IMG/VR virus record: IMGVR_UViG_3300023487_000117
Span: 1-10,626 of that record
Direction: 5' to 3' (one strand)
From: a virus
Taxonomy: Duplodnaviria; Heunggongvirae; Uroviricota; Caudoviricetes
Length of the DNA: 10,626 nt
Position numbers and translations under genes: made by a program. A model generated the notes under the pieces. That model was given only the letters and a program-made list of their open reading frames with translations, ran no database searches and had not been told where the DNA came from. Of the stretch, positions 1 through 10,333 are shown piece after piece. The first letter of the stretch is position 1. Every line of letters starts with the position of its first letter.

Positions 1-36
1 TTGAAAACAAGAACCTCGCTTAGGCCTGTGTCCATA

Positions 37-3000
37 TTACGTGGGTAGGATCAACTTCGCCTTAAAGTCGTCGTAACCGTTCTCCATGAAGTAGCCGGTA
101 CGCCCATCATTGCCGTTCGCGTTGTCCAGAATAACCATGATTTTTGGCTTAATACCAATGCTTGGACGGATTAGATCGTCTCCCAGCCCCATTTCGGCCG
201 CCATGCGCGTCATCAGTACATTTACTTCAGCAGAGCGCTTAGGGTTCATCTCGAACGGTCGAGAGGCTTTTACAGCGTCGATCACCAGATTGCCCATCAA
301 CTCTGCCTGGTCGCGCAGTCGTTCCGGATCTGTCGCTGGCAGACTGCCAGACTCAATCGATGCGAACGCACCTACTTTTTGCAGTGATTCGCGTACCCGG
401 CTGTTACATGCACGCTTCTCGACCGCTTCCTCAAATTGCTCAAGTGACTCGAATTTGCCGCCAACTTTCTCACGCGCTCTCATGATGGCCTGGCAATCAT
501 TCTCAGAGCAGCCTTTCACAGCAGAGAATGGTGCATACAGAACCTGACTGCCGTCTTCCAGCGTGCGGTTCTCAATTCGGTTAGATGACACGTTAACGTC
601 TGGTGGCAATACGCGAATGCCATAGGTCAGCGCATCCTTAACCAGCCCCTGGTGCTTATCCTCGCCCAGAATGGTGAGCGCAGCAGCGAAGAACTCAGCA
701 GGGTAATGTGTCTTTAACCACATAGACTGATAGCTGATTAAAGAATAAGCAACACTGTGTGATTTGTTGAAGGCATATCCACCGAACTTCTCAAAGGCGT
801 CCCATATTTCTTGGGCTTTTTCCTTACTGAGACCTTCTTGTTCAGAGACGATCTCCACGTAGTCTATGCCGTCACTAATAGCCTCGCTGTAGCTTCTACG
901 CTTACCGTCTGAGCAATCCAGTTTTGCGTGTTTGTGAACCTCTACAGTACCTCCATTTTTGAGTGACAGTGTCACCCAGCCTGCTTGTGCTCGTTCTACA
1001 AAATCGCTGCCGATCGCTTTCATCTTATCCATGTTCTTTTTACCGATAGCGGAACGCAGAGCGTCTGCTTCGGCCATAGAGAACCCGGCAAGTACTCGGG
1101 AACTTTGCATGATTTGTTCCTGATAGAGCAAAACACCATTAGTCTCCCGGGTGACTTCCTCAAGACGCGGATGAATTGAATGTGGAGCCATGAAGCCTTT
1201 GGCCACGGAGACATAGTCGTCCAACATGCCGGATTGGATCGGGCCAGGTCGGAAGAGTGCGGTCGTGGCGACAACGGTTTTGAAGCTCATTGGCTCAATG
1301 CCACCGCCCAGATCTTTAAGCAGCTTGCGCATGGGGCCGGACTCCAGCTGGAATACGCCCTGCGTGTACCCTGCAGCGAACCCATCCAGAACCTTACGAT
1401 CGTCCAGTGGAATAGCATCGAGATTGATGTCTTCCCCGGTACTCTCTTTGATGTAGCGTTTCGCGCTATCCAGCAGATCGAGCGTTGCCAGACCGAGAAC
1501 GTCCAGCTTAATCAGCCCCATTGCCTCGCAGTAACGTTTATCGAACGCAATACAGCGAGCGTTGCCACGCAGCTCGACGGGAGTGCGCTCTATCAATGGA
1601 ACGCCAGCGACGATCATCCCCGCAGCGTGACGACCAAAACCACGCATCAGGCTTTGCAGCTTACACGCCGCTTTGAACGCTTCCGGGTTTTTCGTGGCGT
1701 ATTTGTCCAGGCTGGCCAGTTGCTCGCGCAGCTCTTCCAGAGACAGGCTATCGTCTTCCAGATTCTTGAACTCTTTGGATACCGCCATATCCGCAGCGTC
1801 GACACCGTAAATACGCGCAGTGTCTCGCAGCGCAGAAGCGGCGCCCAGATAGGTGAAGTTTGGAATACCGGCAACGTAATCTTCGCCATAGCGTTCATTC
1901 AGATACTCGATCACCTCATGACGACGTGCCTGGCTGAAGTCCAGATCCGCATCCGGTAAGTCAAGACGTTCAGGGTTGATGAAACGCTCAAACAGAAGAC
2001 CGTGACGGATAGGATCGACGTTGGTTATGCCTATGCACCACGCTACCAGAGAACCCGCTGACGAACCACGCCCTGGCCCAACCGGTATTCCTGTTTCACG
2101 GCTGTGATTCATCAGATCGCGTACCATCAGGAAGTAGCCACAGAAGCCCAGACGGGTCAGTGTGTCCATTTCGTACTTCAGTCGCTCAACATACACTCGG
2201 TGCTCAGAAGCCGGTGGTGTGTAGCCAAACTCTTTAGTAGTTAGACGCTTGCGTAGCCCCGCGACAGCCAGCTTCATCAGCGTTGCAGGCTCGTCGTCTG
2301 CCATCTTGGGCAGTGCTGGTGGCAGTTCATGCCAGCGCCATGTGCAGGCTTCAATAATGGTGTCCTGCGTTGTTGAGGCCATTGCAGCTGTTACCGGTAC
2401 GCCCATGCGAACGGAGAAGGCTTTCAGCGCTTCAAGGAGATGGCGACGACCATTAACAGCGTTATCTCGCTGGTGGGGGATGCGCAGACGATGCGGCTGG
2501 TCGATTTTGATGTTGTTCGTAACCATGTGCGCAATGTCTTTAATGTCAGCGTCGTCGATCGCTTCGTAATAAGCGGGATAGAACGCCACTGGCTCTATTT
2601 TCAGTGCGCTCGCCACTTTCATCGCCCGGACGTTAATCTGGTCGTAGAATGGGGTAGGGTGCGGATAAACCACGCTGTAGAAGTTATCGCGACCGCCAGC
2701 TGTGACCAGCGTCCCGATAATTTTTGCGAAGTCCCGGCGCTGGAATACACTGCCAATGTCGGACGTCAGCAGGATGATGTTGCCTTTGGCATATGCGGCT
2801 GCCAGCTGCTCAAGCGCCAGACGCGGGACAAAGTAGAATTGCTCGCGCTTGTTCGCTAAGGTCATCAGTTCGCACACGTCGCGATAACCTTGTTCATTCT
2901 TTATCAGTGCCGTGAAGCAGTAGCTGCTATCACGAACTAATGATTCCATACATCTTCCTGACTCTTTCGCCAAGCGAGCGCGGTGCTCGTATGTCGGATC

Positions 3001-3204
3001 GTCGACCACATTCAGCTTAACACCACAAATAACCGCCATGTCGTCGCCAGCGGCACGCTGCAGGGGGATCACACTGGCAATGTTCATGCTGTCAGCGGAA
3101 ATGACAGCGGTGTAGCCAGCGTCTCTCGCGATTTTCACCGCGTTTTCTGCTTTTAGAGCTGACTCTCCCAGGGAGAAGTCAGTTCTGACCATCAGAGCCT
3201 TCAT
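37..3204 (-). CDS. DnaE-family DNA polymerase (Pol III alpha-like), 1055 aa, stand-alone
   Basis: Long uninterrupted ORF. Pol III alpha hallmark block GYFLMVRDLMNHSRETGIPVGPGRGSSAGSLVAWCIGITNVDPIRHGLLFERFINPERLDLPDADLDF, matching the E. coli DnaE region around the catalytic PDFDVDF as recalled. Third acidic residue context KLDVLGL and GRHAAGMIVAG also present. N-terminal PHP-like region lacks the HxH dyad. Start ATG at 3202-3204 preceded by AAAGG. Confidence 0.85.
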   Translation of the reverse strand: MKALMVRTDFSLGESALKAENAVKIARDAGYTAVISADSMNIASVIPLQRAAGDDMAVICGVKLNVVDDPTYEHRARLAKESGRCMESLVRDSSYCFTALIKNEQGYRDVCELMTLANKREQFYFVPRLALEQLAAAYAKGNIILLTSDIGSVFQRRDFAKIIGTLVTAGGRDNFYSVVYPHPTPFYDQINVRAMKVASALKIEPVAFYPAYYEAIDDADIKDIAHMVTNNIKIDQPHRLRIPHQRDNAVNGRRHLLEALKAFSVRMGVPVTAAMASTTQDTIIEACTWRWHELPPALPKMADDEPATLMKLAVAGLRKRLTTKEFGYTPPASEHRVYVERLKYEMDTLTRLGFCGYFLMVRDLMNHSRETGIPVGPGRGSSAGSLVAWCIGITNVDPIRHGLLFERFINPERLDLPDADLDFSQARRHEVIEYLNERYGEDYVAGIPNFTYLGAASALRDTARIYGVDAADMAVSKEFKNLEDDSLSLEELREQLASLDKYATKNPEAFKAACKLQSLMRGFGRHAAGMIVAGVPLIERTPVELRGNARCIAFDKRYCEAMGLIKLDVLGLATLDLLDSAKRYIKESTGEDINLDAIPLDDRKVLDGFAAGYTQGVFQLESGPMRKLLKDLGGGIEPMSFKTVVATTALFRPGPIQSGMLDDYVSVAKGFMAPHSIHPRLEEVTRETNGVLLYQEQIMQSSRVLAGFSMAEADALRSAIGKKNMDKMKAIGSDFVERAQAGWVTLSLKNGGTVEVHKHAKLDCSDGKRRSYSEAISDGIDYVEIVSEQEGLSKEKAQEIWDAFEKFGGYAFNKSHSVAYSLISYQSMWLKTHYPAEFFAAALTILGEDKHQGLVKDALTYGIRVLPPDVNVSSNRIENRTLEDGSQVLYAPFSAVKGCSENDCQAIMRAREKVGGKFESLEQFEEAVEKRACNSRVRESLQKVGAFASIESGSLPATDPERLRDQAELMGNLVIDAVKASRPFEMNPKRSAEVNVLMTRMAAEMGLGDDLIRPSIGIKPKIMVILDNANGNDGRTGYFMENGYDDFKAKLILPT

Positions 3205-3384: not shown

Positions 3385-4620
3385 TTAACCAAAGATCTTC
3401 TGAACCACTTCACGCGCTGCCTGTGCAGACGTGGATGGAAGTTTATTGATAAACGACTTTTCGATGCCGGCAGAGAAATCACCGCGCATCATTCCGATTT
3501 TGGCGGACAGCAGCAGCTCACGAGGCCCGATTGGCTGGCTAATCTGATGCTTTTCATAACCTTCACGGATAAGATTCGCGAACTTCACCATCTTCTCGGC
3601 GTATTCGCGGATGACGCCTGCTTCAGCCAGCATGTTGACTTCTGCCTTCGTACTCATGTACTTCACGTTTGAAACAATGCCAAAACGCGAGAAGTTCGCT
3701 GCGTTCTGGATGTTTGTGCCTTGATAGAGACCTGTTTCGTCGCCAGAGCCGTTAGTGTTGCCAGTGCCAATGAAGGCAAAGCGTTTATGCGGGGTGATGC
3801 GGCGCCAGTCCGCAGTTGCCTCTTTGATGATCAGCGGCTCTCCTTCAAGAACTGGCTGATACACACCCAGAATCTGCGGGAACGCGAAGTCATATTCATC
3901 AGCGAGGTAAACCCAACCATTTTTCATCGCCAGCGCTAGTAAACCCGGTTCGAAATAGGTGGAACCATCGCGAGCGAGGATCTGGCCTGTAACGTGCGCT
4001 TCCTCCATAGACGCCGTATGCTGGGCGCGGATCAGTGGTCGATTTAGCAGGGCACATAGCTGCGTAGGAAGAGAAGATTTACCGGTTCCTGCATGGCCCC
4101 AGAGATAACCCGGGATTCCGATTTCCAGCATCATAAAGATGTCCTTGATCAGGTCGAAGTCGCCATACACATAGTTTTTCTTCGCTTCAGGTACGAACTC
4201 CGGATAGGGCGTGTTGACGTTGACTGTCACCTGTAGTGGTTTTCCGCGTGGTGTACCCAGCTCTTTGATCGTTACGCCAAGCAGCTCGTGCGCGGCCACC
4301 AGTTCGGTCTTGTATTCGACCGTTCCTGCGTAGCCCGGATGTGCGCTAATCTCCGCTACTTTTCCTTCGCCTGAATGCTTTTCGGCACGCTTCTCATTGA
4401 GTTTGGCCAGTGCCGTGCGAGAGATCGTTGGTTCATCTGGAAACGCAGAGGTGTACATCTTCACCACTTCGTCCACGTCCAGACCCTTCGCAGACTCAGG
4501 AATATTCTCGCAACGGCCCATAGAGATATGGGATTTCAGGTAATGAAAGGATTTGCCACACCACTTGCAGACGATGGCTTCCGGCAAATGTTCTTCTTGC
4601 TGTAGTGCAGTAGCGGTCAT
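3385..4620 (-). CDS. CobS-like AAA+ ATPase (MoxR family), 411 aa
   Basis: Walker A GHAGTGKS (aa 175-182), Walker B-like VYLADEYD, overall CobS/MoxR-like layout. N-terminal C-x2-C-x4-H-x4-H-x5-C motif. Strong RBS AAGGAAAAAAC before ATG at 4618-4620. Confidence 0.8.
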   Translation of the reverse strand: MTATALQQEEHLPEAIVCKWCGKSFHYLKSHISMGRCENIPESAKGLDVDEVVKMYTSAFPDEPTISRTALAKLNEKRAEKHSGEGKVAEISAHPGYAGTVEYKTELVAAHELLGVTIKELGTPRGKPLQVTVNVNTPYPEFVPEAKKNYVYGDFDLIKDIFMMLEIGIPGYLWGHAGTGKSSLPTQLCALLNRPLIRAQHTASMEEAHVTGQILARDGSTYFEPGLLALAMKNGWVYLADEYDFAFPQILGVYQPVLEGEPLIIKEATADWRRITPHKRFAFIGTGNTNGSGDETGLYQGTNIQNAANFSRFGIVSNVKYMSTKAEVNMLAEAGVIREYAEKMVKFANLIREGYEKHQISQPIGPRELLLSAKIGMMRGDFSAGIEKSFINKLPSTSAQAAREVVQKIFG

Positions 4621-4715: not shown

Positions 4716-7019
4716 TTACCTAAGAATGATACGAGATAACTCAGTGACGACTGACGGCCCTAGCTCTTCAACACTGTTAACCAGTGCGTAATTTTTGTAG
4801 TAACGCCGTGGTTCGTCGGTCAGAATGCCGATAGCCATCAGTTCGATGTCGCTCAAGGTCTCAATTTCTTTGGTGACGGTTCGTAAATGCTGATGGAATC
4901 CACTACCTGTAGCACATGGCTCCCCATCACTCATAACCAGCATGATCTTTTTGTCCTCCATTCGCCCTGCAAACAGGGTAGCCAGTTGCGCGACACTCTC
5001 ACCATCGACGTTATTGAGCAGTGGGAACGTCTCACATACGCATCCCATGCGAGCACGGATCTCTGGAGAGTTTGCTTTCTCATTCCAGTTTTTGATAATG
5101 GGCAGCATGAGCGCCTCGAAGCGTGTAAACCCGCGCTTCGACCTGGTTTCATAATCTGGGCTACCGAACGTGGTAAAGCCGGTGATGATGTTGGGGACAT
5201 TGATACGATCTAAAGCATCCGCAATGGTATAGGCACTGGCTAGGGCCAGTTGAATCTTCACGCCATCCATTGAGCCGGACAAGTCGATGACCTGCTGGAC
5301 ACACGCGTTCACCGCTCTATGGTCTTCCTTCTTGCGGAACACTCGGTCGTCGTTCATTGCCAGACGATACAGGCTCGCGCCATGTATCCGCCCACGCCTC
5401 TGACCAGGTATAAACTGAACTCGGTTGCGGCTGGCGATGGCCCGCTCCAGGTCTTTGGCCAGCGTCGAAGAAACGCCTGCAGACAGATGTTTTTCGATTT
5501 TCAGTTCAAAGAGTTTTCTGCCTTCTGGCACCATACGGTAGCGGTCGACTGGTGAGTGCATTGGTATTGCACCGAACGTCTTTCTGGTGCGCTTCACATG
5601 CTCTTCGGCTCCATCAATCAACCCGATAAAGTCGTATGATCGATCGTATGGCCGATAATCAGAAGGTGAGACGCTCATAAGCTCTTTGCTGATGGTGGCC
5701 GACAGTGCGTCTTCGGTCATTTCACCGATTCCGTCTTCCATCTCGTCGAGCGCCTTTAGTGCCTCCTCCAGAGTCATTTCATCCGGCGCAGGAACAAAGC
5801 CAGACTCACTGTCTTTGGGCACTTCCGCACCATCTTTATTTTCTTTGCCTTCGACGTCTTCTTCTTCAGTTTCCCCACGATCAGTATCGGAGTCCTCACC
5901 GCCATCACCATCAGAATCATCGGTATCTTCGCGAATACCATCGCCAGGTCTTGGGGCGCCAGTGCCATTGCTGCCGTCATCATCGGTGTCAGAGTCACTT
6001 GATTTTATGCCGATAGCATCGGATTCTGGGGTGTCTCCTGACTCTTCGTGGCCTGCTTCTGTATATTTACTTTCTGTATCACTAATATCTTTAACGTGTG
6101 TAGGTAAGTCCTTATCTAATGAATCAGACAAATCGGAACCCCCAGAATCTTCCTCTTCTGATGCATCATCTTCTCGTTCTTCCTTGTCATCGCCTTCGCC
6201 TTTGGCAGGCTTAGATGCAGAGTCACCATGAGACGGTTCGTCACCTGATTCTGGCGTTTCCTCGGACTCGTCTTTGCTCTTCGACGGCTTTCTGGCAGAT
6301 GATTTAAGTTCTGGTAATTTGCCCTCTGGCTTGTCTTTCATATCCTGCATGATTTGGGCTATAGCAGCAGCGACCTTCACGCAATCCTCAGTGTTCGACA
6401 TATTGCGAACGGCCACGTCTATACCATGCTCCTTTAGTAAGGCTACCGGCCTCTCGATAAGGCGCCAGTGTTCTTCCATAAAATCGATGAAGGGGCTTTG
6501 TCCATCCCAGGCGCGGACGACCGGGCAAAGAAAGAATTTCAAAAACAATTCACGCTGGTCTCCGTGACAGGCTAAAACCGCTTCTGGTACTTTATTCCTG
6601 AAGTATTTGTCGATAACCAGACTCTGTGTTGCAAGTAAATTACGCCGGGTTCCGTTAAAGACCTGCCCCATTCTGCGTTCAATAAAAACGTCTTCCAGCG
6701 CATTCCAAAGCCCCGTAGACGGAGCCTTTCCTCTTTCGCGCATCTGCATTGCGACTTTCGGTTCAGTAAAGAGAATATGGGCCACCTCATGGTCGAGAAA
6801 ACCACGCACTGCGTTCATGAGGGTTGGCGACGCGTCGTCCGGTATAGATGGGATGTTTACCAGCACTGGTTCGCCGCGCCGGTTATAGCGGACATATGCT
6901 TCATTGCCTCGTTCTGCAACAGGTATCTGTTTACCTGAAAGCATCGCTACAACTCGTTTTACACAGTCGCGAAAATCTTGCACCTCTTTCAGTACAGCTT
7001 TGGTGGTTTTTTTGGACAT
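4716..7019 (-). CDS. CobT-like protein: N-terminal domain with HExxH motif, ~210-aa acidic D/E/S/G-rich linker, C-terminal vWA domain with MIDAS
   Basis: vWA MIDAS DLSGS (codons 5271-5285) and downstream MSDGEP. Acidic low-complexity centre encoded at about 5709-6338. Preferred start is ATG at 7017-7019 (MSKKTTKAV) with a perfect RBS AAGGAAATTCTA; the ORF-track start at 7088 lies inside a palindrome and has no RBS. Confidence 0.8.
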   Translation of the reverse strand: MSKKTTKAVLKEVQDFRDCVKRVVAMLSGKQIPVAERGNEAYVRYNRRGEPVLVNIPSIPDDASPTLMNAVRGFLDHEVAHILFTEPKVAMQMRERGKAPSTGLWNALEDVFIERRMGQVFNGTRRNLLATQSLVIDKYFRNKVPEAVLACHGDQRELFLKFFLCPVVRAWDGQSPFIDFMEEHWRLIERPVALLKEHGIDVAVRNMSNTEDCVKVAAAIAQIMQDMKDKPEGKLPELKSSARKPSKSKDESEETPESGDEPSHGDSASKPAKGEGDDKEEREDDASEEEDSGGSDLSDSLDKDLPTHVKDISDTESKYTEAGHEESGDTPESDAIGIKSSDSDTDDDGSNGTGAPRPGDGIREDTDDSDGDGGEDSDTDRGETEEEDVEGKENKDGAEVPKDSESGFVPAPDEMTLEEALKALDEMEDGIGEMTEDALSATISKELMSVSPSDYRPYDRSYDFIGLIDGAEEHVKRTRKTFGAIPMHSPVDRYRMVPEGRKLFELKIEKHLSAGVSSTLAKDLERAIASRNRVQFIPGQRRGRIHGASLYRLAMNDDRVFRKKEDHRAVNACVQQVIDLSGSMDGVKIQLALASAYTIADALDRINVPNIITGFTTFGSPDYETRSKRGFTRFEALMLPIIKNWNEKANSPEIRARMGCVCETFPLLNNVDGESVAQLATLFAGRMEDKKIMLVMSDGEPCATGSGFHQHLRTVTKEIETLSDIELMAIGILTDEPRRYYKNYALVNSVEELGPSVVTELSRIILR

Positions 7020-7072
7020 TAGAATTTCCTTGTTGTTAAAACAATTTGTTTTCTGATGTGCGTAATTTATCA

Positions 7073-7105
7073 CTGTACGAACAGGCATCTAATCTGTTCG
7101 TACAG
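7073..7105. promoter_or_regulatory. Perfect 12-bp inverted repeat pair (CTGTACGAACAG / CTGTTCGTACAG) with 9-bp spacer, upstream of the cobT-like start
   Basis: Arms at 7073-7084 and 7094-7105 are exact reverse complements. Located 54-86 bp upstream of the preferred start and 28 bp downstream of the 70-aa ORF stop. No U-tract follows on the minus strand. Confidence 0.4.
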
Positions 7106-7132: not shown

Positions 7133-7345
7133 TTAACTTGTGCGGACGGCTACTGAACCGCAGCCGGTATTGATGAGAGTGAAGCACTTGCCCTTTAGCT
7201 CAAAGATGTATGCGGTTGCGTCTTTCATGTCAAGTAACAAAGACTTTGTTGGCAGTTCAGTGAGTATGGCTGCTGCCCCATCATCGTCAATTGAAACCGT
7301 ATGTCCGACCTCAAGGGCGATCAAATTAGAAGTTATTTTTTTCAT
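7133..7345 (-). CDS. Hypothetical small protein (70 aa), possible first gene of the minus-strand operon
   Basis: ORF MKKITSNLIALEVGHTVSIDDDGAAAILTELPTKSLLLDMKDATAYIFELKGKCFTLINTGCGSVAVRTS with ATG start at 7343-7345, same strand as the operon, weak RBS. No recognisable family. Confidence 0.35.
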   Translation of the reverse strand: MKKITSNLIALEVGHTVSIDDDGAAAILTELPTKSLLLDMKDATAYIFELKGKCFTLINTGCGSVAVRTS

Positions 7346-7555: not shown

Positions 7556-7601
7556 CAGTAAGCACTTACCAAATAAAATCAAAACACGCAGGTTGATAAT
7601 T

Positions 7602-7991
7602 ATGGCTACCAACGAAACAACAGAAGCTAAAGTAGGTCGCTACGCTGCTTACATTGACGCTTTAATCGCGATTTCTCCGAAAAGCCAGGCGACCATCGCG
7701 AAAGAAGCAGGCTATAAAAACCCTAACAATCTTTCACTTATCAAGAGCGGCAAAATCCCGCTTCCGATCGACAAGGTCAGAGCGTTGGCTAAAGCATTGG
7801 ATGCCGATTCGGTCCGATTGATGCTAATGGTGCTGGAAGAGCGTCATCCAGAGCTGTTAGCGTTTTTTCGCGACGAAGGCACAGCCCCTCTGACTAAAGA
7901 TGAAAAACTAGTTCTGGAAGCCTTCCGTCGACGTTTCGGTGACCAACGTGGTGCGTCGGAGCGGGTTGTTGAGGCAATCAAGTCGCTATGA
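7602..7991 (+). CDS. XRE/Cro-CI-type helix-turn-helix transcriptional regulator (129 aa)
   Basis: HTH signature SQATIAKEAGYKNPNNLSLIKSGK. ATG at 7602 with AGG 9 nt upstream; the ORF-track start 7593 is an upstream TTG. Stop overlaps the integrase stop. Confidence 0.7.
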   Translation: MATNETTEAKVGRYAAYIDALIAISPKSQATIAKEAGYKNPNNLSLIKSGKIPLPIDKVRALAKALDADSVRLMLMVLEERHPELLAFFRDEGTAPLTKDEKLVLEAFRRRFGDQRGASERVVEAIKSL

Positions 7992-9089
7992 GAAATTTAC
8001 ACGGATTAGCTCAGTAGCGAGTCGATCTCCCTTGAACTTATGATCTATCTCCTCTAAATCCTGTTTCTCTACGATTGATGCGATGTACGCCGAAAAACTG
8101 TTTAAGGCGTCTCGCATCTCGTCTATATAATCGTGTCGATCGTATACTCGATCTATCCCCTCAAGACTGTGGTTCATAATTTTGCGGGATACCTCCTGAC
8201 TTATGCCTAACGCGGGGAAGTAACTACGCGCAGTACGACGCAAATCTCGGGGGGTAAATGGCTCAAGCTCCATCAACTCTGGACGTTCTAAAATCCTTCT
8301 CAACGCCTGTGATATGGCCACCTTAGACATTGGCACATCCTCACCCTGTTTCTTGTTTGAAGGAACAAGCCACTGGCTGCCTTTTCCGTATTTGATCAGC
8401 TCCTCAACACATTTGCGCATTAGCGGGCTTAATGGTAACGAGTGCTGGCGAGCCGATTTATTCCTCGTTCCTTGATTCCATAAATTATATTCGAGGTTGA
8501 ATTCTGATCTTTTAGCCCGGAGCACTTCATCTGGTCGTCTGGCCGCTACAAGGCATAATCTGGCCGCCCACTTTGTACCCTCACATACGTTGAAGTAGTC
8601 CCATACATTCCAAAAGACCCAGACCTCTGCGTCGGTCAGTTTGCGCTCACGCGGCGTGGGCTTCGCGCCACCGGCTACTCTGTTAAGCGACATATCGTTC
8701 AATGGGGATGTATCAATTAAGCCCTGAAATGCACACCAACTGAGAAACTGCTTCATCAGCGAGAACACACGTCTGCCCTGGACGATCTTGCCCTCAAGTA
8801 TTAATGGGTTCACCAGCTGGTTGACTAAAACCCTACTAATGTCACTTACTTTTACTTCACAGATATGCGGCATTACATGTATCAAAATACAATGAACAGC
8901 TATTTCAGGTCGACGTCTCGTTATCAGCAAAGATAAGCGAGTGAATAACATGAATGCGGAAGAAAACGACATGTCACCGTCGAAATTGGTGGTCGACACT
9001 GCTGACAAACCGGAAGCGCGTTCGAGATACTCGATGGCTTCTCTAGAGGTGTTTTCTGCTGCGCGTGCTTTATCAAAAGTGTTTTTCAT
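7986..9089 (-). CDS. int: Tyrosine site-specific recombinase / integrase (up to 367 aa)
   Basis: Catalytic signature box I LVAARRPDEV and C-terminal TPRDLRRTARSYFPALGIS...IMNHSLEGIDRVYDRHDY (R, H-x-x-R, Y). N-terminal ~90 aa do not resemble a P4-type arm-binding domain, so the true start may be internal. Confidence 0.85.
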   Translation of the reverse strand: MKNTFDKARAAENTSREAIEYLERASGLSAVSTTNFDGDMSFSSAFMLFTRLSLLITRRRPEIAVHCILIHVMPHICEVKVSDISRVLVNQLVNPLILEGKIVQGRRVFSLMKQFLSWCAFQGLIDTSPLNDMSLNRVAGGAKPTPRERKLTDAEVWVFWNVWDYFNVCEGTKWAARLCLVAARRPDEVLRAKRSEFNLEYNLWNQGTRNKSARQHSLPLSPLMRKCVEELIKYGKGSQWLVPSNKKQGEDVPMSKVAISQALRRILERPELMELEPFTPRDLRRTARSYFPALGISQEVSRKIMNHSLEGIDRVYDRHDYIDEMRDALNSFSAYIASIVEKQDLEEIDHKFKGDRLATELIRVNFS

Positions 9090-9117
9090 AGTCCACTCAC
9101 TGAGTTAAGCCTGTTTT

Positions 9118-9137
9118 TACTGTATTTATAAACAGTA
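9118..9137. promoter_or_regulatory. LexA (SOS) box, near consensus
   Basis: TACTGTATTTATAAACAGTA matches the E. coli consensus TACTG(TA)5CAGTA at 18/20 positions, with CTGT-N8-ACAG intact. It sits 29-48 bp upstream of the integrase ATG. Confidence 0.6.
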
Positions 9138-9187
9138 TGTTGGGCCTAAGTTTTTGTATGATCAACAGTAAAATAGACTGTTTTTGA

Positions 9188-9222
9188 AAATGATTCCATA
9201 CCTTACAAGTATGGAATCATTT
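9188..9222. terminator. Bidirectional intrinsic-terminator-like hairpin
   Basis: Perfect 11-bp stem TGATTCCATAC (9191-9201) / GTATGGAATCA (9209-9219), 7-nt loop CTTACAA, flanked by AAAA on the 5' side and TTTAT on the 3' side (U-tract in both orientations). Confidence 0.45.
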
Positions 9223-9389: not shown

Positions 9390-9737
9390 TCAGCTAGAAT
9401 GGAAACCTTCTGCGACTTCAGCGAAGTAGCTGAGCAACCTAGTATCTCTTGCTGGCATACGATCGTGAGCTGGAGTGACTAGCCCCATCAGCAAAAAACG
9501 CCCGCTATCCCACATGTGCTCGGTATAAACGAGATAGTGGTTTGAGGTTCGGTTGTAGTTCTCTTGCCTTGCGTTCCAGGTAAGCTGGAAATGCAAATTG
9601 ACGTGAATATGCTGGACATTAGCATCAACGGCGAACGGCGGGAAGTCAAATGGCGCATCTCGTCCAAGAAGATTAGATGGTGCGCCAGTTGATTTGTAAG
9701 TAATGGGGTCTGAGGGCCAATGGAACGAAAACGTACG
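9390..9737 (-). pseudogene. Start-less open frame (~116 codons), likely remnant of a truncated gene
   Basis: Frame open from the stop at 9738-9740 to the stop at 9390 with protein-like composition (...DAPFDFPPFAVDANVQHIHVNLHFQLTWNARQENYNRTSNHYLVYTEHMWDSGRFLLMGLVTPAHDRMPARDTRLLSYFAEVAEGFHSS). No ATG; the only start is a TTG at 9596. Family not recognised. Confidence 0.25.
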
Positions 9738-9979: not shown

Positions 9980-10333
9980 ATGCCAGAAATTGCATCCCTA
10001 CAACTTTTCAAAATACTATCTGATGAAACCCGCCTGGGTATCGTGCTACTGCTCAGGGAGATGGGGGAGCTGTGCGTATGCGATCTCTGCACAGCGCTGG
10101 AACAATCACAACCCAAGACCTCCCGCCATCTGGCGATGCTTCGGGAAAGTGGCCTGTTGCTGGATCGCAAGCAGGGGAAATGGGTTCATTATCGCTTATC
10201 CCCGCATATTCCTTCCTGGGCTGCCCTGGTGATTGAGCAGGCCTGGTTAAGTCAACAGGACGACGTACAGGCCATCGCCCGTAAGCTGGCATCCGCCAAC
10301 TGCTCTGGCAGCGGTAAGGCTGTTTGTATCTAA
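9980..10333 (+). CDS. arsR: ArsR arsenical-resistance operon repressor (117 aa)
   Basis: Near-identical by eye to R773-type ArsR: LQLFKILSDETRLGIVLLLREMGELCVCDLCTALEQSQPKTSRHLAMLRESGLLLDRKQGKWVHYRL, metal-binding ELCVCDLC and C-terminal CSGSGKAVCI. Confidence 0.95.
   Translation: MPEIASLQLFKILSDETRLGIVLLLREMGELCVCDLCTALEQSQPKTSRHLAMLRESGLLLDRKQGKWVHYRLSPHIPSWAALVIEQAWLSQQDDVQAIARKLASANCSGSGKAVCI

What the first reader, a model, noticed from the sequence alone, without database searches (positions are those of the whole stretch)
9118..9137. Near-consensus LexA box 29 bp upstream of the integrase start
An 18/20 match to the E. coli SOS box is very unlikely by chance. Its position suggests the integrase, or a divergent short transcript, is repressed by LexA and induced by DNA damage. 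This would couple element excision/integration to the SOS response, alongside a polymerase-encoding cargo.
Basis: partly seen in the sequence, partly recalled or inferred. Interest (0 to 1): 0.65.

Follow-up and report, generated by a model that had tools for sequence, protein, structure and literature searches.

The report
SOS-controlled recombinase promoter on a phage-plasmid
A real, conserved LexA (DNA-damage) operator sits on the promoter of a recombinase gene in a plasmid-borne virus related to Yersinia pestis pMT1 and Salmonella Typhi pHCM2. The recombinase looks like a Cre/lox-type plasmid recombinase with its own target site next door, not a chromosomal integrase.

Summary
TACTGTATTTATAAACAGTA at 9118-9137 matches the E. 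coli SOS box at 18 of 20 positions and ends 28 nt before the recombinase ATG (9089, minus strand).

It is not chance. About 105 of 118 related loci carry a box at the same place, in more than 20 sequence variants that keep CTG-N10-CAG while the centre varies. The box abuts a conserved minus-strand promoter (-35 TTGATC 9160-9165; -10 9137-9142), so it covers the predicted transcription start.

The window is E. coli plasmid pB379_2, an SSU5/pHCM2/pMT1-type phage-plasmid. In a 115-kb relative this is the only LexA box above noise. In the relative Cyrano, published RNA-seq shows the int gene rising about 19-fold inside macrophages, in parallel with host dinI, umuD and sulA.

The excision/integration reading is not supported:
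- All 255 copies in 5,426 complete E. coli genomes are on plasmids.
- The protein lacks an arm-binding domain.
- A 13-7-13 inverted repeat (9189-9221) lies 52 bp upstream of the box, and its arms co-vary with the recombinase in distant relatives.

Most likely, LexA gates a Cre/lox-like recombinase. The gene is also convergent with the putative prophage repressor gene, so it may contribute to SOS induction.

The parts
9118..9137 (.). LexA operator (SOS box) TACTGTATTTATAAACAGTA
   Evidence: It matches the consensus at 18 of 20 positions, and 0 of 200 shuffles gave a comparable site. The PSSM score is 26.8, the top of the known range. It is conserved at a fixed position in about 105 of 118 related loci, in more than 20 variants that keep CTG-N10-CAG.
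9137..9142 (-). Predicted -10 hexamer of the int promoter. It reads CAACAT here and TAATAT in most relatives, and it shares its last base with the box.
   Evidence: This block is conserved (TATATTAGGC on the plus strand) in 71 unique sequences, with mean entropy 0.14 bits. The assignment is inferred, not mapped. In this window only 3 of 6 positions match TATAAT.
9160..9165 (-). Predicted -35 hexamer TTGATC, 17-nt spacer to the -10, containing a GATC Dam site
   Evidence: GATCAA is nearly invariant across lineages, with entropy 0.07 bits. The simple consensus scan did not report this promoter because the -10 in this window is degenerate.
9090..9131 (-). Predicted transcription start (about 9128-9131, inside the box) and the 5' UTR of int
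   Evidence: The start is inferred from the -10 position. In three relatives a group II intron sits in the int-sense orientation directly after the promoter-distal end of the box. This is consistent with the stretch being transcribed toward int.
7986..9089 (-). Tyrosine recombinase gene ('integrase', 367 aa)
   Evidence: It matches Pfam PF00589 and not PF13356. The catalytic residues R185, K211, R284/R285, H307 and Y316/Y321 are conserved. The AlphaFold model (pLDDT 86.8) is closest to lambda Int residues 75-356, Tn1549 Int, Xer, IntI and Cre.
9189..9221 (.). Putative recombinase core site: AATGATTCCATAC - CTTACAA - GTATGGAATCATT (13-bp inverted arms, 7-bp spacer)
   Evidence: The arms are identical in 11 blastn-selected relatives while the spacer differs by lineage, and sequence homology between plasmids stops just beyond the repeat. 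In relatives with 45-49% Int identity the arms change symmetrically to TGACTCCAGAC with the same 7-bp spacer. This includes megaplasmids that have no XRE neighbour.
7593..7991 (+). XRE/HTH regulator gene, convergent with int; the two 3' ends overlap by 6 bp
   Evidence: It matches PHROG 8 'transcriptional regulator' and gives weak HTH_3/HTH_31 hits. Its Cyrano orthologue CYRAN_45 is listed as the putative master repressor in PMC9928086. It has no S24 autocleavage domain.
7133..7345 (-). 70-aa ORF (PHROG 2627, function unknown). It is the first gene of the leftward CobT-like / AAA / DnaE block and lies downstream of int on the same strand.
   Evidence: The expression profile of its Cyrano orthologue CYRAN_46 tracks int across five conditions.
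2939..2953 (+). Single, oriented copy of the repeat arm (AATGATTCCATACATC) inside the 5' part of dnaE, antisense to it
   Evidence: The exact 13-mer is present here. A copy lies about 6.0-6.3 kb from the repeat in every lineage. The overlapping dnaE codons C-M-E-S-L show no synonymous change across lineages.

Best explanation
The palindrome is a working LexA operator on the sigma-70 promoter of the recombinase gene of an SSU5/pHCM2/pMT1-type phage-plasmid.

How it most likely works:
- On the minus strand the promoter is -35 TTGATC (9165-9160), a 17-nt spacer, then a -10 hexamer (9142-9137).
- The box starts at the last base of the -10 and covers roughly -7 to +13. Bound LexA would therefore block open-complex formation or promoter escape.
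- DNA damage activates RecA, LexA cleaves itself, and the recombinase gene is transcribed.

The recombinase is not a chromosomal integrase. It is a two-domain 'simple' tyrosine recombinase with no arm-binding domain. Its cognate site is the 13-7-13 inverted repeat 52 bp upstream of the box.

Its most likely job is Cre/loxP-like recombination of the plasmid prophage with itself. That would mean resolving multimers made by RecA-dependent recombination, and possibly circularising incoming genomes. SOS control would then supply the enzyme when recombination and repair are active.

Shown: the sequence, its conservation, its position, plasmid-only location, domain content, arm/recombinase covariation, and SOS-like expression in a relative.

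Inferred: LexA binding, the transcription start, the recombination reaction and its biological role.
For: 1. Box quality. It matches the consensus at 18 of 20 positions and no shuffle gave a comparable site. Its PSSM score of 26.8 equals the best E. coli sites.
2. Phylogenetic footprint. In 118 loci that carry the repeat, about 105 have a box scoring 13-28.7 at a fixed 50-53 bp from the repeat. More than 20 variants keep CTG-N10-CAG while the centre varies. Mean entropy is 0.11-0.30 bits in the half-sites, against 0.79 in the box centre and 0.82 in the 5' UTR. The -10 (0.14) and -35 (0.07) are also conserved.
3. Rarity of boxes. It is the only LexA-like site above noise in the complete 115.2-kb relative pEC21Z137-115K. 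In Cyrano it is one of two; the other precedes a UmuD-like S24 gene.
4. Expression in a relative. In RNA-seq tables of PMC9928086, Cyrano int (CYRAN_44) reads log2 5.6 / 7.9 / 6.1 / 8.9 / 10.3 in LB, medium 1 h, medium 6 h, macrophage 1 h and macrophage 6 h. This parallels host dinI, umuD and sulA, while the phage dnaE, primase, helicase and ligase genes stay flat. That paper describes macrophages as SOS-inducing and reports 39-fold induction of Cyrano by ciprofloxacin.
5. Plasmid-only location. All 255 places are on plasmids and none is chromosomal.
6. Simple recombinase. PF13356 is absent, although it is present in the nearest outgroup at 26-33% identity. The catalytic residues are conserved. 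The fold is a two-domain tyrosine recombinase.
7. Site and enzyme linkage. The repeat arms co-vary with Int at 2 of 12 positions, changed symmetrically in both arms. The repeat persists upstream of int in Pantoea and Rahnella megaplasmids that lack the XRE neighbour.
8. No alternative system. Int is the only site-specific recombinase annotated in Cyrano, and Cyrano has no Xer-type site.
Against: - There is no binding, transcription-start or recombination data for this element. The PSSM rests on sites recalled from memory.
- In this particular plasmid the -10 has drifted to CAACAT (3 of 6), and the consensus promoter scan did not call the promoter. The element also looks degraded: dnaE is cut by IS3 and yafO by the ars insertion.
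- The macrophage RNA-seq is not a clean SOS experiment. Toxin-antitoxin genes and some late genes also rise, and whether the data are strand-specific is unknown.
- Tight SOS repression is an odd fit for a housekeeping multimer resolvase, and resolving concatemers during lytic growth could hinder packaging.
- Relatives with 45-63% Int identity have the repeat but no LexA box, so SOS control is not intrinsic to the recombinase's function.
- Extra single arm copies spread over 9 kb are not explained by a simple lox model.
Confidence: 0.62

Rival explanations
1. SOS sensor for prophage induction. The LexA-gated int promoter fires through int and head-on into the convergent, overlapping repressor gene (7593-7991). 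It may continue into the 70-aa ORF and the CobT-like / AAA / DnaE block. Repressor expression would fall through transcriptional interference or antisense RNA, or the repressor-controlled early promoter would be bypassed. The recombinase promoter would then double as the damage input of a phage whose repressor cannot cleave itself. This can coexist with the best explanation.
For: - Cyrano is induced 39-fold by ciprofloxacin.
- Its putative master repressor CYRAN_45 is the XRE gene convergent with int. That protein has 128-132 aa and no S24 domain.
- The int box is the only LexA site in the window's lineage.
- No intrinsic terminator is predicted on the minus strand between the int stop and the 70-aa ORF.
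- The int/XRE 3' overlap is conserved across the SSU5-type relatives and in Xenorhabdus and Providencia relatives.
- CYRAN_46 tracks int across five conditions (4.3/7.0/6.0/8.65/10.8 against 5.6/7.9/6.1/8.9/10.3), whereas CYRAN_45 peaks earlier and then falls.
Against: - Everything here is inferred from gene arrangement.
- 'Putative repressor' is an annotation, not a tested function.
- About 640 nt of untranslated RNA follow int, which could trigger Rho-dependent termination.
- cobT rises only about 2 log2 and dnaE not at all in macrophages.
- Relatives without a LexA box keep the same convergent layout.
- CYRAN_46 could simply have its own derepressed promoter.
Confidence: 0.2
2. The gene encodes an integrase that moves the element into and out of a chromosome, and LexA makes excision or integration damage-inducible.
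For: - The gene is annotated 'site-specific integrase', and its nearest sequence relatives outside the family are P4-type integrases.
- Integration of pMT1/pFra into the Y. pestis chromosome has been reported by Protsenko et al. 1991. I saw that paper only as a citation title, and the mechanism is unknown to me.
Against: - None of the 255 copies in complete E. coli genomes is chromosomal.
- The 7 genome-contig hits to the repeat lie on contigs of 12-169 kb; those I inspected in any way match plasmids of this family.
- The element has its own repA and par genes.
- There is no arm-binding domain and no excisionase gene nearby.
- The site is a symmetric 13-7-13 repeat, present as one full copy per element.
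- No tRNA gene or att-like duplication is present in the window.
Confidence: 0.04
3. The recombinase-fold protein also, or mainly, acts as a DNA-binding regulator. It would bind the repeat and the dispersed single arm copies (ATGATTCCATACATC) to control transcription or replication around the early region. This would resemble the recombinase-like master repressors MrpR/YopR of phage SPbeta. LexA would then gate a regulator rather than a recombination reaction.
For: - There are five arm copies per element, all within about 9 kb, arranged -> -> [-> <-] <- around the repeat. Their positions are conserved in all lineages, including those without a LexA box.
- The copy inside dnaE shows no synonymous change, so the constraint is on the DNA or RNA sequence.
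- In relatives without a LexA box the repeat lies 20-75 bp from the int ATG, where it could autoregulate.
- MrpR/YopR appear among the structural hits, though weakly, with TM about 0.3.
Against: - All catalytic residues are conserved, which argues for an active recombinase.
- The protein that binds the single copies is unknown.
- No single copies were seen within 3 kb of int in the relatives at 45-49% identity.
Confidence: 0.1
4. The box controls a short rightward (plus-strand) transcript that ends at the repeat hairpin, and int is not the target.
For: - The conserved TATATT next to the box could also serve as a plus-strand -10 in relatives.
- On the plus strand, the repeat hairpin is followed by T-rich sequence in several lineages.
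Against: - There is no conserved plus-strand -35 at the right distance.
- The 9166-9188 stretch is poorly conserved, at 0.95 bits.
- There is no Rfam match except a sub-threshold chance hit.
- There is no conserved small ORF.
Confidence: 0.04

Closest known systems
Integron integrase intI promoters repressed by LexA (Guerin et al. 2009, from my own knowledge; Cambray et al. 2011, PMC3108266)
   Same: In both, a tyrosine-recombinase gene on a mobile element has a canonical LexA box overlapping its promoter. The recombinase's primary site lies immediately upstream, and variable cargo lies beyond that site. In both, the box is conserved across many lineages and lost in some.
   Different: - This protein is not an IntI. 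Its sequence relatives are P4-type integrases, and IntI is only a mid-ranking structural neighbour.
- The site is a symmetric double-stranded 13-7-13 repeat, not attI/attC.
- The adjacent cargo genes mostly point toward int and are not attC-bounded cassettes.
- The host element is a phage-plasmid.
Cre/loxP of phage-plasmid P1, and other Cre-type pairs such as Dre/rox and VCre/VloxP
   Same: Both are simple two-domain tyrosine recombinases encoded by a plasmid prophage, with a single site of 13-bp inverted arms around a short asymmetric spacer close to the gene. The inferred roles are the same: multimer resolution and genome circularisation. From my own knowledge (Sternberg 1986), cre expression is modulated by Dam methylation; here the -35 hexamer contains a conserved GATC.
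   Different: - The spacer is 7 bp, not 8 bp.
- There is no detectable sequence similarity to Cre, and Cre ranks below lambda Int, Tn1549 Int, Xer and IntI structurally.
- To my knowledge cre has no LexA box.
- Recombination at this repeat has not been shown.
- The extra single arm copies have no Cre/lox counterpart.
LexA-controlled induction modules of other phage-plasmids and prophages: N15 antC, coliphage 186 tum, GIL01 (cited in PMC11652158)
   Same: In each, host LexA rather than repressor self-cleavage provides the DNA-damage input to a temperate phage whose repressor lacks an S24 domain.
   Different: In those systems the LexA-controlled gene is an antirepressor, or LexA acts directly at the lytic promoter. 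Here the controlled gene is a recombinase convergent with the repressor gene, and no antirepressor has been identified.
Rci/sfx shufflon sites and TnpI/IRS of Tn4430 (from my own knowledge)
   Same: Both use tyrosine recombinases whose sites have one conserved 12-14-bp arm plus a 7-bp spacer (sfx), or several copies of a single binding motif (TnpI). This resembles the single ATGATTCCATAC+ATC copies seen here.
   Different: - Those motifs cluster within about 0.1-2 kb and take part in inversion or resolution.
- Here the single copies are 1.6-6.3 kb away and have different spacers within one plasmid.
- No inverted arrangements were seen in about 65 loci.

Membership tests
LexA (SOS) operator of Gammaproteobacteria | A 20-bp palindrome matching TACTGT-(AT)4-ACAGTA, with CTG-N10-CAG intact | tested here: met
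   It matches at 18 of 20 positions with CTGT-N8-ACAG exact. The PSSM score is 26.8, the top of the known-site range of 12.5-26.8.
LexA (SOS) operator of Gammaproteobacteria | The site overlaps or abuts a promoter so that bound LexA blocks RNA polymerase | tested here: inconclusive
   A conserved -35 TTGATC / 17 nt / -10 TAATAT (CAACAT in this window) lies immediately upstream on the int strand, and the box starts at the last base of the -10. The promoter is inferred from conservation only. No transcription-start data exist, and the consensus scan did not call it in this window.
LexA (SOS) operator of Gammaproteobacteria | Half-sites conserved across orthologous promoters while the spacer is free to vary | tested here: met
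   More than 20 variants in about 105 loci keep CTG-N10-CAG. Half-site entropy is 0.11-0.30 bits against 0.79 in the centre.
LexA (SOS) operator of Gammaproteobacteria | LexA binds, and the downstream gene is damage-inducible in a recA- and lexA-dependent way | not testable with these tools
   Only indirect evidence is available. The orthologous int in Cyrano rises 4.2 log2 in macrophages, in step with dinI, umuD and sulA. No lexA or recA mutant data exist.
Tyrosine recombinase (Phage_integrase, PF00589) | Catalytic domain with the R-K-(H/x)xxR-H/W-Y residues | tested here: met
   PF00589 matches at E = 6.5e-9. R185, K211, R284/R285 and Y316/Y321 are invariant and H307 is at least 90% conserved in 38 sequences. 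The fold matches lambda Int, Tn1549 Int, Xer, IntI and Cre.
Arm-binding ('complex') integrases of the P4/lambda type that integrate into chromosomes | An N-terminal arm-type DNA-binding domain (PF13356/DUF4102 or equivalent) with arm sites flanking the core | tested here: not met
   There is no PF13356 hit in the protein or in its family of 360-380 aa, although outgroup integrases at 26-33% identity carry it. The NCBIfam P4-type profile aligns only from profile position 137.
Arm-binding ('complex') integrases of the P4/lambda type that integrate into chromosomes | Found integrated in chromosomes next to an attachment site, often a tRNA gene | tested here: not met
   None of 255 places is chromosomal in complete E. 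coli genomes. There is no tRNA gene in the window. Every fetched context that could be classified is a plasmid, megaplasmid or phage-plasmid.
Cre/lox-type simple recombinase with a plasmid resolution site | A single site near the gene with two inverted 11-14-bp recombinase-binding arms around a 6-8-bp asymmetric spacer | tested here: met
   The site is AATGATTCCATAC-N7-GTATGGAATCATT at 9189-9221. There is one full site per element. The arms co-vary with Int in distant relatives, which carry TGACTCCAGAC-N7-GTCTGGAGTCA.
Cre/lox-type simple recombinase with a plasmid resolution site | The recombinase catalyses recombination between two copies of the site without accessory factors, and resolves plasmid multimers | not testable with these tools
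   No experimental data exist. Indirect support is that Int is the only site-specific recombinase annotated in Cyrano and that Cyrano has no Xer-type site.
Integron (IntI / attI / attC cassettes) | An IntI-specific extra domain and attC-bounded cassettes next to attI | tested here: not met
   No closer similarity to IntI than to other tyrosine recombinases was found. The neighbouring cargo consists of ordinary operons such as the yafO toxin-antitoxin pair, caf1, a colicin-immunity gene and grxA, mostly pointing toward int. attC sites were not searched for formally.

The most novel reading that the evidence does not exclude
In the SSU5/pHCM2/pMT1/pKpn/pSLy3 phage-plasmids, the LexA-gated recombinase promoter is the element's DNA-damage sensor. 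On SOS induction it would drive transcription head-on through the overlapping gene for a repressor that cannot cleave itself, and on toward the early replication block. This would flip the lysis-lysogeny switch by convergent transcription rather than through an antirepressor or repressor cleavage. At the same time it would supply a recombinase that acts on a lox-like site and on a polar set of dispersed half-sites.
Probability: 0.15. Interest if true: 0.8.

Novelty: new member of a known kind. Interest (0 to 1): 0.5.

Why it matters
SSU5-type phage-plasmids are common in Enterobacterales. The module matched 794 plasmids in PLSDB and occurs in 252 of 5,426 complete E. coli genomes. The family includes Y. 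pestis pMT1 and S. Typhi pHCM2-like plasmids, and its members can carry resistance genes (PMC9600943).

How these elements sense DNA damage is not described in the papers I could search, although at least one member is strongly induced by ciprofloxacin. A conserved LexA operator on the recombinase promoter gives a concrete, testable entry point. It is the only such operator in some lineages, and the gene faces the putative repressor gene.

The result also corrects the 'integrase' annotation toward a Cre/lox-like system with a defined 33-bp candidate site. That site could be useful as a new recombinase/site pair.

Finally, it adds a second family of SOS-controlled tyrosine recombinases on mobile elements, alongside the integron integrases.

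Tried and rejected
- My first CTGT-N8-CAG pattern was mis-specified and missed the box. I corrected it.
- The sigma-70 consensus scan did not report the int promoter in this window. The promoter was recovered only from cross-lineage conservation.
- There is no tRNA or tmRNA gene in the window.
- A sequence search of PDB with Int found nothing useful. The fold search was needed.
- Rfam gave only a sub-threshold GAIT hit on the hairpin, which I dismissed as chance.
- I considered the repeat as an intrinsic terminator. I rejected that as the main role because the arms are sequence-invariant while the loop varies, and the downstream T-run is not conserved on either strand.
- I considered the repeat as the operator of the XRE protein. 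I rejected that because the repeat persists with int in megaplasmids that lack the XRE gene.
- I looked for inversions or deletions between the single arm copies. All of about 65 loci have the same layout, and spacers differ within a plasmid.
- A Xer-site scan found nothing convincing.
- Searches for 'SSU5 + LexA', 'pMT1 + integrase + LexA', 'LexA + multimer resolution + tyrosine recombinase' and 'SSU5 + tyrosine recombinase' found no prior description.
- Gilcrease and Casjens 2018 could not be retrieved.
Full report
**1. The observation**

Window 9118-9137 reads TACTGTATTTATAAACAGTA. It differs from the E. coli SOS-box consensus TACTGTATATATATACAGTA at two central positions. It is the only site in the window within 3 mismatches, and none of 200 dinucleotide-preserving shuffles produced one.

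CTGT-N8-ACAG is exact, whereas one-mismatch versions of that short core occur at chance frequency. A position-weight matrix built from 28 E. coli LexA sites, which I recalled from the literature and which is therefore approximate, scores the site at 26.8 bits. That is as high as the best known operators.

The neighbouring ORF (7986-9089, minus strand, 367 aa) starts at the ATG at 9089, 28 nt from the box.

**2. Where the window comes from**

The window is 100% identical to E. coli plasmid pB379_2 (152 kb). It is 99.3-99.6% identical, up to about 9705, to many E. coli plasmids, most of 105-116 kb and a few up to about 240 kb. These plasmids carry repA and par genes, a full set of siphovirus structural and lysis genes, and a large replication and recombination gene set.

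They belong to the SSU5 / pHCM2 / pMT1 / pKpn / pSLy3 phage-plasmid supergroup (PMC7969092, PMC11652158).

The local gene order is conserved: DnaE (37-3204), AAA ATPase (3385-4620), CobT-like (4716-7088), a 70-aa ORF (7133-7345), an oppositely oriented XRE/HTH gene (7593-7991, plus strand), then the recombinase (7986-9089). The same order is seen in E. coli, Klebsiella, Enterobacter, Salmonella Typhi, Y. pestis pMT1, and in Xenorhabdus and Providencia relatives. DnaE is therefore backbone, not cargo.

In this plasmid the backbone is damaged. An IS3 element truncates dnaE at about residue 1051 of 1168. An arsRDABC segment replaces everything beyond a 5'-truncated yafO-like toxin gene.

**3. Is the box functional? 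Comparative evidence**

DNA similarity between lineages that are otherwise only about 75% identical covers the 5' end of int, the box, and a perfect inverted repeat. It stops right after that repeat.

I collected 118 occurrences of the repeat from GTDB genomes, IMG/VR contigs and annotated records. About 105 of them have a LexA-like site scoring 13-28.7 bits at a fixed 50-53 bp from the repeat. These fall into more than 20 sequence variants, for example:
- TACTGTATGCATGAACAGTA in pMT1
- TACTGTATTTATATACAGTA in Klebsiella
- ACCTGTATAAGTAACCAGTA in p09EL50
- CACTGTATAAGTAAACAGTA in Cyrano-like elements

All variants keep CTG-N10-CAG. Column entropies in 71 unique sequences are 0.30 and 0.11 bits for the two half-sites, against 0.79 for the box centre and 0.82 for the 5' UTR. 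This is the pattern expected of a protein-binding palindrome under selection.

One caveat applies. These loci were fetched with the exact repeat arms as the search pattern, so the invariance of the arms in that set is by construction. The 11 blastn-selected sequences show the same invariance independently.

**4. The promoter**

On the int strand, two further conserved blocks flank the box. TTGATC lies at 9165-9160 (entropy 0.07). Exactly 17 nt downstream lies a hexamer that is TAATAT in most lineages, TAACAT in the closest relatives and CAACAT in this window (9142-9137; entropy 0.14).

Read as -35 and -10, these elements put the transcription start inside the box, with the box spanning about -7 to +13. 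That is a common geometry for LexA repression, from my own knowledge of the lexA and sulA promoters.

Three relatives carry a group II intron in the int-sense orientation. Its 5' GTGCG directly follows the promoter-distal end of the box. This is consistent with the stretch being transcribed toward int.

No comparably conserved -35 exists for a rightward promoter, and the 9166-9188 stretch is poorly conserved. I therefore reject the 'divergent short transcript' alternative as unsupported.

The promoter assignment remains an inference. The generic promoter scan did not call it here, and the degenerate -10 suggests the promoter may be weakened in pB379_2.

**5. Element-wide view and expression**

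A whole-replicon scan of the 115.2-kb relative pEC21Z137-115K finds this box at 26.8 bits. Nothing else exceeds 11.3 bits, which is within the range reached by shuffled sequence.

In phage-plasmid Cyrano (pLF82), which has the same int / box / repeat layout, there are two strong boxes. One is upstream of int. The other lies 17 bp upstream of a UmuD/HumD-like S24 peptidase gene that the window's lineage lacks.

Published data for Cyrano (PMC9928086) are informative:
- Virion production rises 39-fold with ciprofloxacin.
- In their re-analysis of GSE154648, int (CYRAN_44) has log2 values 5.6 / 7.9 / 6.1 / 8.9 / 10.3 in LB, medium 1 h, medium 6 h, macrophage 1 h and macrophage 6 h.
- Host dinI reads 7.3 / 7.5 / 5.8 / 9.1 / 10.2, umuD reads 5.4 / 4.8 / 4.1 / 8.2 / 8.9, and sulA reads 7.2 / 6.1 / 7.3 / 8.4 / 9.85.
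- The phage dnaE, primase, helicase and ligase genes stay flat.
- The authors describe the macrophage as an SOS-inducing environment.

This is correlative and comes from a relative, but it is what LexA control predicts.

**6. What the 'integrase' is**

The protein has a PF00589 catalytic domain and a weak central-domain hit. It has no arm-binding domain. Its family is 360-380 aa long and found across Enterobacterales. The family lacks PF13356, which is present in the nearest outgroup, the P4-type integrases at 26-33% identity (NCBIfam alignment from profile position 137).

The catalytic residues R185, K211, R284/R285, H307 and Y316/Y321 are conserved. An AlphaFold model (pLDDT 86.8) is closest to lambda Int residues 75-356, followed by Tn1549 Int, Xer recombinases, IntI and Cre.

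In 5,426 complete E. coli genomes the module occurs in 252 genomes at 255 places, all on plasmids.

**7. The inverted repeat**

The repeat is AATGATTCCATAC-CTTACAA-GTATGGAATCATT at 9189-9221. It has 13-bp arms and a 7-bp spacer, which is the geometry of a tyrosine-recombinase core site.

The arms are identical across lineages while the spacer differs: CTTACAA, TTAATAG, CTACCAA, ATAGTAG and CTAAAGA.

Relatives with 58-63% Int identity keep the exact arms about 45 bp from the ATG, with no LexA box. These are Chimaeribacter plasmids and several IMG/VR contigs.

Relatives with 45-49% Int identity have (A)TGACTCCAGAC-N7-GTCTGGAGTCA(T) 20-75 bp upstream of int. These are Xenorhabdus and Providencia phage-plasmids and the Pantoea and Rahnella megaplasmids. 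Their arms differ from ours at the same two positions in both arms, and the spacer is again 7 bp.

The two megaplasmids have no XRE neighbour. The repeat therefore travels and co-varies with the recombinase, not with the regulator.

Only one full site exists per element. No other site-specific recombinase is annotated in Cyrano, and no Xer-type site is evident there.

The best reading is a Cre/loxP-like pair acting on the plasmid itself. The LexA box plus a new promoter would then be an insertion between site and gene, specific to the SSU5/pHCM2/pMT1/pKpn/pSLy3 clade.

**8. Mechanism I commit to**

In undamaged cells LexA occupies 9118-9137 and keeps the recombinase promoter off. After DNA damage, LexA cleavage releases it. 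The recombinase then acts at the 33-bp site, most plausibly to resolve multimers generated by RecA-dependent (and phage-encoded) recombination and to circularise genomes.

My confidence that the box is a functional LexA operator controlling int is about 0.85. My confidence that the enzyme's role is lox-like self-recombination is about 0.55. For the combined statement it is 0.62.

**9. What does not fit, and the more interesting alternative**

Tight SOS control is an odd choice for a housekeeping resolvase. Two features suggest an added role.

First, int is convergent with, and overlaps by 6 bp, the XRE gene that the LF82 study lists as the putative master repressor. That protein has no self-cleavage domain, yet the phage is damage-inducible. 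No intrinsic terminator is predicted between the int stop and the 70-aa ORF that heads the early block. In Cyrano that ORF's expression tracks int, while repressor RNA peaks earlier. SOS-driven read-through could therefore interfere with repressor expression or bypass it. I give this about 0.2, and it is compatible with the main model.

Second, the arm sequence is part of a dispersed 15-mer, ATGATTCCATACATC. Each element has exactly five arm copies within about 9 kb, arranged -> -> [-> <-] <-. One lies inside dnaE (window 2939-2953), where the overlapping codons show no synonymous change. Two lie on the cargo side, near the tRNA genes. They have no second arm, their spacers differ, and no rearrangements between them were seen. 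I cannot explain them.

**10. Comparison with known systems and novelty**

The closest precedent for the regulation is LexA control of the integron integrases (PMC3108266). The closest precedent for the enzyme/site pair is Cre/loxP of P1. The closest precedent for LexA as the damage input of a phage-plasmid is N15 antC (PMC11652158).

None of my literature searches found the SSU5-family box described. The library is limited, however, and one relevant paper could not be read.

I rate it a new member of a known kind: an SOS-regulated tyrosine recombinase on a mobile element. The open possibility of a new induction mechanism is scored separately.

**11.

The excision/integration coupling, the 'polymerase cargo' and the divergent transcript are not supported.

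Noticed in passing
window 2939-2953 (+); pEC21Z137-115K 21722, 29639, 30659; Cyrano 37802, 38814, 47010: There are single, oriented copies of the repeat arm extended by ATC (ATGATTCCATACATC). Each element has five arm copies in total, all within about 9 kb and pointing toward the full repeat. Their positions are conserved in every lineage. The copy inside dnaE shows no synonymous variation. Function unknown.
   Followed up: partly
window 1-37 and 37-3204: dnaE is truncated at about residue 1051 of 1168 by an IS3 element that abuts the start of the window. The protein tail diverges from the full-length relatives, so this copy of the phage-plasmid is probably defective.
   Followed up: yes
window 9390-9705 and 9980-10333: The yafO-like toxin gene has lost its 5' end and its upstream partner gene. 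Backbone homology stops at about 9705, where an arsRDABC segment begins. In intact relatives a 175-aa ORF plus yafO lie here.
   Followed up: partly
L009 (K. variicola) 650-2600; IMG/VR L081, L096: A group II intron (ltrA, same strand as int) is inserted in the int 5' UTR. Its 5' GTGCGCC directly follows the promoter-distal end of the LexA box, which stays intact.
   Followed up: partly
window 7073-7105: A perfect 12-bp inverted repeat, CTGTACGAACAG-N9-CTGTTCGTACAG, straddles the start codon of the CobT-like gene (7088). It could be an RNA hairpin that occludes the start, or an operator. It is not a LexA box.
   Followed up: no
repeat spacer, window 9202-9208; L011 (PhiR41_1), L020 (Buttiauxella): The 7-bp spacer occurs in both orientations relative to int (ATAGTAG 37 times against CTACTAT once; TTAATAG 31 times against CTATTAA twice). 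This suggests occasional loop flips of the palindrome.
   Followed up: partly
Cyrano OV696614.1 89275-89294 (L125): A second near-consensus LexA box, TACTGTATGTGTATACAGTA, lies 17 bp upstream of CYRAN_98, a 129-aa UmuD/HumD-like S24 peptidase. That gene also rises in macrophages. The gene is absent from the window's lineage.
   Followed up: yes
Cyrano CYRAN_43 (L123 6345-6899), just beyond the repeat: This gene lies immediately on the cargo side of the repeat and is transcribed away from it. It is by far the most highly expressed Cyrano gene in lysogens (723 times background in PMC9928086). It has no homologue at this position in the window.
   Followed up: no
window 9160-9165: The predicted -35 hexamer TTGATC contains a GATC Dam site that is conserved in most lineages. 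This is reminiscent of the Dam-sensitive cre promoters of P1, which I cite from my own knowledge.
   Followed up: no
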